NCBI RefSeq assembly: GCF_003334785.1
Contig: NZ_QOWV01000001.1
Length of the DNA: 64,000 bases
From: Escherichia coli
Lineage (GTDB): Bacteria > Pseudomonadota > Gammaproteobacteria > Enterobacterales > Enterobacteriaceae
Direction: 5' to 3' (one strand)
The notes beneath the pieces are model-generated. The model was not told the DNA's origin. It did no database searches and saw only the letters and a list, made by a program, of their open reading frames with translations. A program made the position numbers and the translations under genes. This document shows, one piece after another, positions 50,417 through 50,463 of the stretch. Each line of letters opens with the position of its first letter. The stretch's first letter is position 1.

Positions 50417-50463
50417 TGTTTCATAGTGAAACATATGCTTTAATGAATGTTCCATATTGAAAC
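50417..50463. promoter_or_regulatory. Two palindromes (TGTTTCA-tag-TGAAACA and GTTCCA-tat-TGAAAC) in the dhaK-dhaR divergent region; candidate DhaR sites
   Basis: Read directly at 50417-50433 and 50448-50463, between the divergently transcribed dhaKLM operon and dhaR. Confidence 0.4.

What the first reader, a model, noticed from the sequence alone, without database searches (positions are those of the whole stretch)
50417..50463. Paired palindromes between dhaKLM and dhaR
TGTTTCA-tag-TGAAACA and a related GTTCCA-tat-TGAAAC lie about 30 bp apart in the 228-bp divergent promoter region. They are plausible binding sites for the DhaR activator, which autoregulates and activates dhaKLM.
Basis: partly seen in the sequence, partly recalled or inferred. 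Interest (0 to 1): 0.3.

Follow-up and report, generated by a model that had tools for sequence, protein, structure and literature searches.

The report
DhaR operator dyads, dhaK–dhaR promoter
The two palindromes are real and are almost certainly the paired docking sites of the regulator DhaR in front of the E. coli dihydroxyacetone kinase operon: a well-supported but ordinary feature of an already studied control region.

Summary
The window carries the E. coli dhaKLM/dhaR locus. The 227-bp intergenic region is 100% identical to thousands of E. coli genomes.

Site 1 is a perfect 9+3+9 dyad (50415-50435). Site 2 is an imperfect copy (core 50449-50463), 31 bp away centre to centre. The shared core GTTYC-N5-GRAAC occurs only at these two places in the 64 kb.

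DhaR orthologues from nine genera (54-97% identity, recognition helix invariant) have the same dyad, always in pairs 31-32 bp apart, in front of the dha structural genes. In genera with a glycerol dehydrogenase gene (dhaD/gldA-like) beside dhaR, a second pair precedes that gene. Each pair sits exactly 36 nt upstream of a -10-like hexamer. This places the dyads near -56 and -87 of an inferred sigma70 dhaK promoter.

Rival regulators (GlpR, YgfI/DhfA, NtrC, TyrR, CRP, FNR, Cra), a sigma54 promoter and RNA hairpins do not fit.

I could not open the primary paper (Bächler 2005), so overlap with a published footprint is unchecked. Novelty is low.

One extra: a third conserved element of unknown role lies 30 nt beyond the distal dyad (50484-50496).

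The parts
50415..50435 (.). Site 1: perfect dyad TATGTTTCA-TAG-TGAAACATA, core GTTTCATAGTGAAAC at 50418-50432. It is the dyad nearest dhaK, with its centre at 50425. That is 125 bp from the dhaK ATG and about -56 of the inferred dhaK promoter.
   Evidence: It is conserved in all orthologous dhaK promoters.
50447..50463 (.). Site 2: imperfect dyad ATGTTCCATATTGAAAC, core GTTCCATATTGAAAC at 50449-50463. It is the distal dyad for dhaK. Its centre at 50456 is about -87 of the inferred dhaK promoter and 72 bp before the dhaR ATG.
   Evidence: In other Escherichia lineages and one Citrobacter (L007) the orthologous site is the perfect dyad GTTCCATAACGGAAC; two other Citrobacter copies carry one mismatch.
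50396..50404 (-). T-tract ATTTTCTTT on the dhaK strand. It occupies about -35 to -27 of the inferred promoter, where a canonical -35 hexamer would be.
   Evidence: It forms a conserved island at a fixed distance in 14 promoter modules aligned without gaps. Its role is inferred.
50376..50381 (-). -10-like hexamer CACAAT on the dhaK strand. It implies a transcription start near 50369 and a 5' untranslated region of about 69 nt.
   Evidence: An xAxAAT hexamer lies exactly 36 nt after the proximal dyad in 14 of 14 modules from 9 genera. I found no start-site data for the induced promoter, so this is inferred.
50484..50496 (.). Third conserved element, AAAATTGCGAGCC on the + strand. In promoter orientation the consensus is cTGGmTCgCAwTtT. 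Its TCGCA starts 30 nt upstream of the distal dyad. Role unknown.
   Evidence: 17 of 18 modules. TTGCGA within it was predicted as the -35 of a constitutive dhaR promoter in PMC3946193.
49230..50300 (-). dhaK coding sequence, the first gene of dhaKLM and the regulated target.
   Evidence: RefSeq annotation of an identical region and the ORF list.
50528..52447 (+). dhaR coding sequence. The protein has GAF-PAS, AAA+ and HTH_8 domains and lacks the GAFTGA sigma54-contact motif.

Best explanation
The two dyads are the DhaR operator of the divergent dhaKLM/dhaR control region.

Each 15-19-bp dyad (consensus aT-GTTyC-ATwAT-GrAAC-At) would bind one DhaR dimer through the C-terminal Fis-type helix-turn-helix. 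The 31-bp spacing, three helical turns, puts both dimers on the same face of the DNA so that they can contact each other.

The pair sits just upstream of a sigma70-type dhaK promoter. That promoter has a -10-like CACAAT and a T-tract where a good -35 hexamer would be. The dyad centres fall near -56 and -87. From there, DhaR switched on by DhaL-ADP would recruit or stimulate RNA polymerase.

The same bound complex lies 25-80 bp upstream of the dhaR start region. That position is the likely basis of the reported autorepression.

Shown here: the dyads, their spacing, their specificity, and their co-conservation with DhaR and the dha genes.

Inferred: DhaR occupancy, the promoter positions, and how autorepression works.
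For: 1. Gene identity. The locus is dhaM-dhaL-dhaK on the minus strand and dhaR on the plus strand. The intergenic region is at least 99% identical in 5362 E. coli records.

2. Specificity.
- The core pattern matches only these two places in 64 kb, against 0.29 expected.
- No shuffle out of 5000 gave two hits in the intergenic region.
- Across about 102 kb of orthologous loci, all 26 exact hits lie in dha intergenic regions. About 0.4 would be expected from the pattern's degeneracy.

3. Phylogenetic footprint.
- Pairs spaced 31-32 bp are present in 9 genera whose DhaR is 54-97% identical.
- The half-sites are conserved while the central spacer and the linker between dyads vary.
- Positions that were not part of the search pattern are also biased, giving ATwAT in the spacer.

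4. The motif follows the regulon.
- In Klebsiella, Kluyvera, Shimwellia, Pantoea and an unnamed genus, a second pair precedes the glycerol dehydrogenase gene (dhaD/gldA-like)-dhaR unit.
- In Serratia the only pair precedes gldA-dhaKLM, and none precedes dhaR.

5. An unbiased count of perfect palindromes shared among the 9 intergenic regions ranks only facets of this motif at the top. TGTT-N9-AACA occurs in 6 of 9 regions, whereas no shuffle gave more than 3 for 4-nt arms or 2 for 5-nt arms.

6. The recognition helix IGRTTLWRK is invariant across the orthologues.

7. The module is rigid. A -10-like hexamer lies 36 nt after the proximal dyad in 14 of 14 modules.

8. Literature and protein sequence. 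DhaR activates dhaKLM from a sigma70 promoter and lacks the sigma54-binding motif (PMC10084136; PMC8046923). GAFTGA is absent from the DhaR encoded in the window.
Against: - No binding experiment could be consulted. The primary paper is not held, and no accessible paper reports a DhaR footprint or motif.
- Every genome examined also encodes other glycerol-related regulators, so co-occurrence alone cannot formally exclude one of them.
- The simple sigma70 scan found no promoter in the region, and no transcription start for the induced promoter was available. The -56 and -87 positions are therefore a model.
- Other proteins have been reported at this intergenic region: YgfI/DhfA and PtrR by ChIP-exo and NtrC by genomic SELEX.
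Confidence: 0.85

Rival explanations
1. The dyads are operators for a different regulator of glycerol or carbon metabolism rather than for DhaR. Candidates are GlpR (DeoR family), the LysR-type YgfI/DhfA or PtrR, and NtrC.
For: - The half-site ATGTTC resembles the GlpR operator seen upstream of glpD, TGTTCGATAACGAACA.
- ChIP-exo peaks for YgfI and PtrR, and an NtrC genomic SELEX peak, map to this intergenic region.
- Site 1 contains a T-N11-A box of the kind LysR-type regulators use. This is read directly from the sequence.
Against: - GlpR operators are even-length dyads, with 18 bp between the outer ATGTT and AACAT pentamers. The dha dyads are odd-length, with 19 bp.
- The DhaR-type pattern finds nothing within 2 mismatches in the glpD and glpF regulatory regions, and only one 2-mismatch match in glpT/glpA. 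The GlpR core fits dha site 2 only with 3 mismatches.
- The published predicted YgfI site is GATGCACAATGGATTC, which is 50370-50385, outside the dyads.
- The NtrC box TGCACCAnnnTGGTGCA is absent within 4 mismatches.
- The motif tracks dha genes next to dhaR in nine genera.
Confidence: 0.07
2. The inverted repeats act as RNA hairpins in a transcribed leader, for example an attenuator or a stability element, rather than as protein-binding DNA.
For: The minus-strand RNA of 50405-50475 folds somewhat better than shuffled sequences (-12 kcal/mol, z = -2.35).
Against: - The fold is weak and pairs site 1 with site 2 rather than forming the individual dyads. The plus strand gives z = -1.4.
- The dyads lie upstream of the inferred -10 of dhaK.
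- Conservation is of half-site sequence and exact helical spacing, with mixed GTTTC/GGAAC half-sites. That pattern suits a dimeric protein and not stem pairing.
Confidence: 0.02
3. The palindromes are chance features of an AT-rich intergenic region and have no function.
For: A palindrome with arms of at least 7 nt appears in 12% of shuffled intergenic regions.
Against: - Arms of at least 9 nt appear in 0.8% of shuffles, and two motif hits in 0 of 5000.
- The dyads are conserved as pairs at fixed spacing in nine genera whose intergenic regions are otherwise not alignable.
Confidence: 0.01

Closest known systems
E. coli DhaR / dhaKLM regulatory system (Bächler et al. 2005, EMBO J 24:283; cited)
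   Same: It is the same locus, the same regulator and the same divergent arrangement. Activation from a sigma70 promoter and autoregulation are as the literature describes.
   Different: Nothing is demonstrably different. Whether the published binding site is exactly these dyads could not be checked, because the paper is not held. The comparative picture (paired dyads, a second pair at dhaD, a fixed 36-nt offset to the -10) may go beyond what is published.
NtrC enhancer sites (17-bp box TGCACCAnnnTGGTGCA; PMC8743547)
   Same: The regulator belongs to the same protein family (AAA+ enhancer-binding protein with a Fis-type HTH_8 domain). The 7-3-7 dyad geometry is the same. From my own knowledge of the glnAp2 enhancer, NtrC dyads there also come as a pair about three helical turns apart.
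   Different: The half-site sequence differs, and no NtrC box is present within 4 mismatches. No sigma54 -24/-12 promoter follows. The sites abut a sigma70-type promoter near -56 and -87 rather than lying more than 100 bp upstream. DhaR lacks GAFTGA.
TyrR boxes (TGTAAA-N6-TTTACA), the other sigma70-acting member of the enhancer-binding-protein family in E. coli (family grouping in PMC8743547)
   Same: An AAA+ regulator works at sigma70 promoters through strong and weak palindromic boxes placed side by side. This comparison is from my own knowledge.
   Different: The sequence and spacing differ, and no TyrR box is present within 3 mismatches. TyrR senses amino acids and ATP, whereas DhaR is controlled by binding of DhaK and DhaL.
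GlpR operators of the glp regulon
   Same: The ATGTTC-type half-site is similar and both belong to glycerol-related metabolism.
   Different: The dyad is one base pair shorter and of even length. The centre is CG rather than CC/TC. The two patterns do not cross-match.

Membership tests
DhaR operator of the dha regulon | Lies in the control region of dhaKLM, next to dhaR | tested here: met
   Annotation of an identical E. coli region. The dyads are 125 and 156 bp from the dhaK ATG.
DhaR operator of the dha regulon | Motif is conserved upstream of dha genes in genomes that encode a DhaR orthologue with the same recognition helix | tested here: met
   Nine genera, 18 promoter modules. The helix IGRTTLWRK is invariant.
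DhaR operator of the dha regulon | Dyad symmetry suited to a dimeric helix-turn-helix protein | tested here: met
   Perfect 9+3+9 palindrome and a symmetric position-frequency table.
DhaR operator of the dha regulon | Physically bound by DhaR (gel shift, footprint or ChIP) | not testable with these tools
   The primary paper is not held. No accessible paper gives a footprint.
Sigma54 enhancer (upstream activating sequence of an enhancer-binding protein) | Paired dyads about three helical turns apart, bound by an AAA+/HTH_8 protein | tested here: met
   Spacing of 31-32 bp in all pairs. DhaR domain content.
Sigma54 enhancer (upstream activating sequence of an enhancer-binding protein) | A downstream -24/-12 (GG-N10-GC) promoter and a GAFTGA loop in the activator | tested here: not met
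   No GG-N10-GC on either strand of the intergenic region and no GAFTGA in DhaR. The literature states sigma70 dependence.
GlpR operator | Match to the TKYTCG-N4-CGARMA core as found at glpD | tested here: not met
   The best match in the dha intergenic region has 3 mismatches. The glp regions lack the DhaR-type motif.
YgfI/DhfA (LysR-type) site | Coincides with the published predicted site at dhaK | tested here: not met
   The published site GATGCACAATGGATTC maps to 50370-50385, 32 bp away from site 1.
TyrR, CRP, FNR, Cra and NtrC boxes | Match to the consensus box | tested here: not met
   None of the five consensus boxes overlaps the dyads within 2-4 mismatches; the only match is a weak FNR-like 2-mismatch hit near 50330.

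The most novel reading that the evidence does not exclude
The dha promoter may be a rigid module of three or more conserved parts. The parts are a conserved element 30 nt beyond the distal dyad, two dyads three turns apart, a T-tract in place of a -35 hexamer, and a -10 hexamer at a fixed 36 nt. Such a module would record how an AAA+ enhancer-binding protein was rewired from sigma54 enhancers to direct activation of sigma70 polymerase. The third element (50484-50496) would then be an undescribed protein contact or a coupled divergent core promoter needed for activation or autorepression.
Probability: 0.2. Interest if true: 0.4.

Novelty: already known. Interest (0 to 1): 0.15.

Why it matters
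It confirms, from sequence comparison alone, where DhaR most likely docks. It also yields a usable motif, aT-GTTyC-ATwAT-GrAAC-At in pairs 31-32 bp apart. That motif can be used to annotate dha regulons in Enterobacterales and to design promoter mutants or DHA/glycerol biosensors.

It does not change the understanding of the system. DhaR control of this region has been published since 2005. The only open item is the third conserved element and the exact promoter geometry of a sigma70-dependent member of the enhancer-binding-protein family.

Tried and rejected
Literature:
- Bächler 2005 could not be opened by PubMed id, PMC id or DOI.
- Seven full-text searches found no DhaR footprint, motif or the 17-mer itself. 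An eighth led only to the RpoD genomic SELEX promoter prediction.

Transcription start data:
- The Cappable-seq table is cut off before this locus.
- Kim 2012 lists only a weak antisense start inside dhaR.
- Mendoza-Vargas 2009 has nothing for these genes.
- Thomason 2015 is not held.
- The supplement of the NtrC genomic SELEX paper does not list the dha sequence.

Sequence tests that came back negative:
- The built-in sigma70 and terminator scan found nothing in 50250-50580.
- GlpR, the published YgfI site, and NtrC, TyrR, CRP, FNR, Cra and sigma54 patterns were all tested and rejected.
- The RNA-hairpin reading was rejected.

Uninformative loci:
- L010 (47% identity) and L037 do not hold the dhaK promoter. 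Serratia was refetched with longer flanks.
- I also asked whether the third element is a degenerate DhaR dyad. In E. coli, ATTGCGAGCCGGAAC has 2 mismatches, but the GGAAC half is not conserved outside Escherichia, so I rejected that idea.

Full report
**What is there.** The window around 50,300-50,530 is the E. coli dihydroxyacetone kinase locus.
- A 225-bp query covering the intergenic region is at least 99% identical in 5362 complete E. coli records.
- The annotated starts put the dhaK ATG at 50300 and the dhaR ATG at 50528, so the intergenic region is 227 bp. The ORF lister's longer ORFs simply begin at earlier in-frame ATGs.

**The observation.**
- Site 2, ATGTTCCATATTGAAAC (50447-50463), is an imperfect copy.
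- The repeat finder reports the two as one 31-nt direct repeat. The dyad centres, 50425 and 50456, are 31 bp apart, which is about three turns of the helix.

**Is it more than chance?**
- A palindrome with arms of at least 9 nt occurs in 0.8% of dinucleotide shuffles of the region. Two matches to the shared core GTTYC-N5-GRAAC occur in none of 5000 shuffles.
- In the whole 64-kb window the core matches only these two places, against 0.29 expected.
- With 2 mismatches allowed, the stricter pattern finds background-level hits elsewhere. The signal is therefore the exact pair, not loose similarity.

**Comparative evidence.** A scan of one genome per species with the DhaR protein, a protein search and eight context look-ups gave orthologous loci. 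They come from other Escherichia lineages, Citrobacter, Klebsiella, Kluyvera, Shimwellia, Rahnella, Pantoea, Serratia and an unnamed genus. DhaR identity to E. coli ranges from 97% down to 54%.
- Every locus that includes the promoter of the dha structural genes carries the same dyad in a pair with 31 or 32 bp start-to-start spacing.
- In Klebsiella, Kluyvera, Shimwellia, Pantoea and the unnamed genus, a glycerol dehydrogenase gene (dhaD/gldA-like) lies between the intergenic region and dhaR. There the roughly 580-bp intergenic region carries two pairs, one facing dhaK and one facing that gene.
- In Serratia, dhaR lies tail to tail with the gldA-dhaKLM operon. The single pair is in front of gldA-dhaKLM and none is in front of dhaR.
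- Across about 102 kb of these loci, all 26 exact matches fall in dha intergenic regions. About 0.4 matches would be expected from the degeneracy of the pattern.
- Because I picked the sites with the pattern, their invariant core is partly circular. Two checks avoid that problem:
  - The five spacer positions, which the pattern left free, are biased to ATwAT.
  - A pattern-free count of perfect palindromes shared among nine intergenic regions puts only facets of this motif at the top. TGTT-N9-AACA occurs in 6 of 9 regions and ATGTT-N9-AACAT in 5 of 9. No 5-nt-arm palindrome was shared by more than 2 regions in 200 shuffles.
- The C-terminal helix-turn-helix of DhaR, including IGRTTLWRK, is invariant across all these orthologues. 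An unchanged DNA motif fits that.

**Promoter architecture (inferred).** I oriented 14 non-redundant modules toward their regulated gene and aligned them without gaps, anchored on the dyads. This shows conserved islands at fixed distances.
- The islands are the distal dyad, the proximal dyad, a T-tract 14-22 nt after the proximal dyad, and an xAxAAT hexamer that starts exactly 36 nt after it.
- In E. coli the hexamer is CACAAT on the minus strand (50381 to 50376) and the T-tract is ATTTTCTTT (50404 to 50396).
- If the hexamer is the -10, transcription starts near 50369 and the 5' untranslated region is about 69 nt. The dyads are then centred near -56 and -87, and the T-tract takes the place of a consensus -35 hexamer.
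- That is the expected look of an activator-dependent sigma70 promoter. It agrees with published statements that DhaR acts at a sigma70 promoter and lacks the sigma54-binding motif (PMC10084136).
- The DhaR encoded in the window has no GAFTGA, and the intergenic region has no GG-N10-GC core on either strand.
- The simple sigma70 scan found nothing, as would be expected for a promoter without a -35 hexamer.
- I found no start-site data for the induced promoter, so these positions remain a model.

**Mechanism proposed.** Two DhaR dimers bind the two dyads on the same face of the helix and contact each other. With DhaL-ADP bound to the sensing domain, the complex activates sigma70 polymerase at the adjacent dhaK promoter.

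The dyad geometry (7-3-7, in pairs three turns apart) is that of NtrC-type enhancers. The 17-bp NtrC box is quoted in PMC8743547; the three-turn pairing at glnAp2 is from my own knowledge. DhaR thus appears to keep an enhancer-like site layout moved next to a sigma70 promoter.

Autorepression of dhaR is plausibly due to the same complex sitting just upstream of, or over, the dhaR core promoter. An RpoD genomic SELEX study predicted TTGCGA-17-CATAAG for dhaR (PMC3946193). That would put site 2 near -67. An alternative -10, TAAAAT at 50483-50488, would put site 2 near -39. I cannot choose between them.

**Rivals.**
- *GlpR.* The half-site resembles GlpR operators, so I fetched the glpD, glpT/glpA and glpF control regions.
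  - The GlpR core TGTTCGATAACGAACA is present at glpD.
  - It is one base pair shorter and even-length, and the two patterns do not cross-match.
- *YgfI/DhfA.* The published predicted site at dhaK, GATGCACAATGGATTC at -92, maps to 50370-50385. That is outside the dyads and over my inferred -10.
- *Other boxes.* NtrC, TyrR, CRP and Cra consensus boxes are absent; the only FNR-like match (2 mismatches, near 50330) lies outside the dyads.
- *RNA hairpins.* RNA folding of the segment is weak and pairs site 1 with site 2 rather than forming the dyads.

**Comparison with what is known, and novelty.** DhaR control of this very region in E. coli K-12 has been published (Bächler et al. 2005, cited). 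A perfect 21-bp palindrome there is unlikely to have gone unnoticed. I could not open the paper or RegulonDB, so I cannot say whether the published site is exactly these dyads. The finding is best filed as already known, with strong independent comparative support. Interest is low.

**Loose end.** A third conserved element has the consensus cTGGmTCgCAwTtT in promoter orientation. In E. coli it is AAAATTGCGAGCC at 50484-50496.
- Its TCGCA begins exactly 30 nt upstream of the distal dyad in 17 of 18 modules. This includes the dhaD-side modules, where no divergent gene follows closely.
- It is not a DhaR dyad and not a sigma54 promoter.
- Its TTGCGA coincides with the predicted dhaR -35, but no -10 is conserved after it in other genera.
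- Its role is unexplained.

Noticed in passing
window 50484-50496, and the equivalent positions in L003-L008, L032-L036, L038 and L039: A third conserved element (AAAATTGCGAGCC on the + strand; cTGGmTCgCAwTtT in promoter orientation). Its TCGCA starts exactly 30 nt upstream of the distal dyad in 17 of 18 dha promoter modules. It is not a DhaR-type dyad and not a sigma54 core. It overlaps the TTGCGA that PMC3946193 predicted as the dhaR -35. Role unknown.
   Followed up: partly
L032 856-1156, L033 821-1120, L034 787-1087, L036 4364-4661, L039 6168-6498: In genera with a glycerol dehydrogenase gene (dhaD/gldA-like) between the intergenic region and dhaR, the roughly 580-bp region holds two back-to-back copies of the whole module: third element, dyad pair, T-tract and -10. 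One copy faces dhaK and the other faces that gene. This looks like an inverted duplication of the promoter module.
   Followed up: partly
L035 2438-2452 (Rahnella): A single extra dyad, GTTTCATCAGGGAAC, lies 56 bp before the dhaR ATG in addition to the dhaK-side pair. It may be a dedicated autoregulation site that E. coli lacks.
   Followed up: no
window 50370-50385: The published predicted YgfI/DhfA site (GATGCACAATGGATTC; PMC9068703 Table S1) coincides with the -10-like hexamer and start region I infer for dhaK. PtrR ChIP-exo and NtrC genomic SELEX peaks are also reported for this intergenic region. That raises the question of whether some of these are promoter-associated or non-specific signals.
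   Followed up: partly
window 50337-50369: The block TGTTCAACGACACGGCGACCACTGACTGCCGAT lies in the inferred dhaK 5' untranslated region. It is almost unchanged between Escherichia and Citrobacter but is not obviously kept in other genera. PMC3946193 predicts a constitutive dhaK promoter, TTGAAC-16-CGTAAT, starting within it.
   Followed up: no
L043 1501-2469 (E. coli O19:H7 strain 730V1), corresponding to window ~50348: An IS5-family transposase is inserted between the dyads with the inferred promoter and the dhaK start codon. This should uncouple dhaKLM from DhaR control in that strain. PMC8046923 describes IS629-associated disruptions of this locus in O157:H7.
   Followed up: partly
window ~50618, minus strand (inside dhaR): Kim et al. 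2012 (PMC3415461, supplementary start-site table) assign to dhaK a weak start at U00096.2 position 1250379 on the minus strand. That is antisense inside dhaR, 318 nt upstream of the dhaK ATG, and it would read through the dyads.
   Followed up: no
window 50519-50527 and 50301-50330: The mechanical ORF list starts dhaR at an ATG 9 nt upstream of the annotated start and dhaK 30 nt upstream of its annotated start. The annotated starts (50528 and 50300) fit the ribosome-binding sequences and the orthologue alignments.
   Followed up: partly
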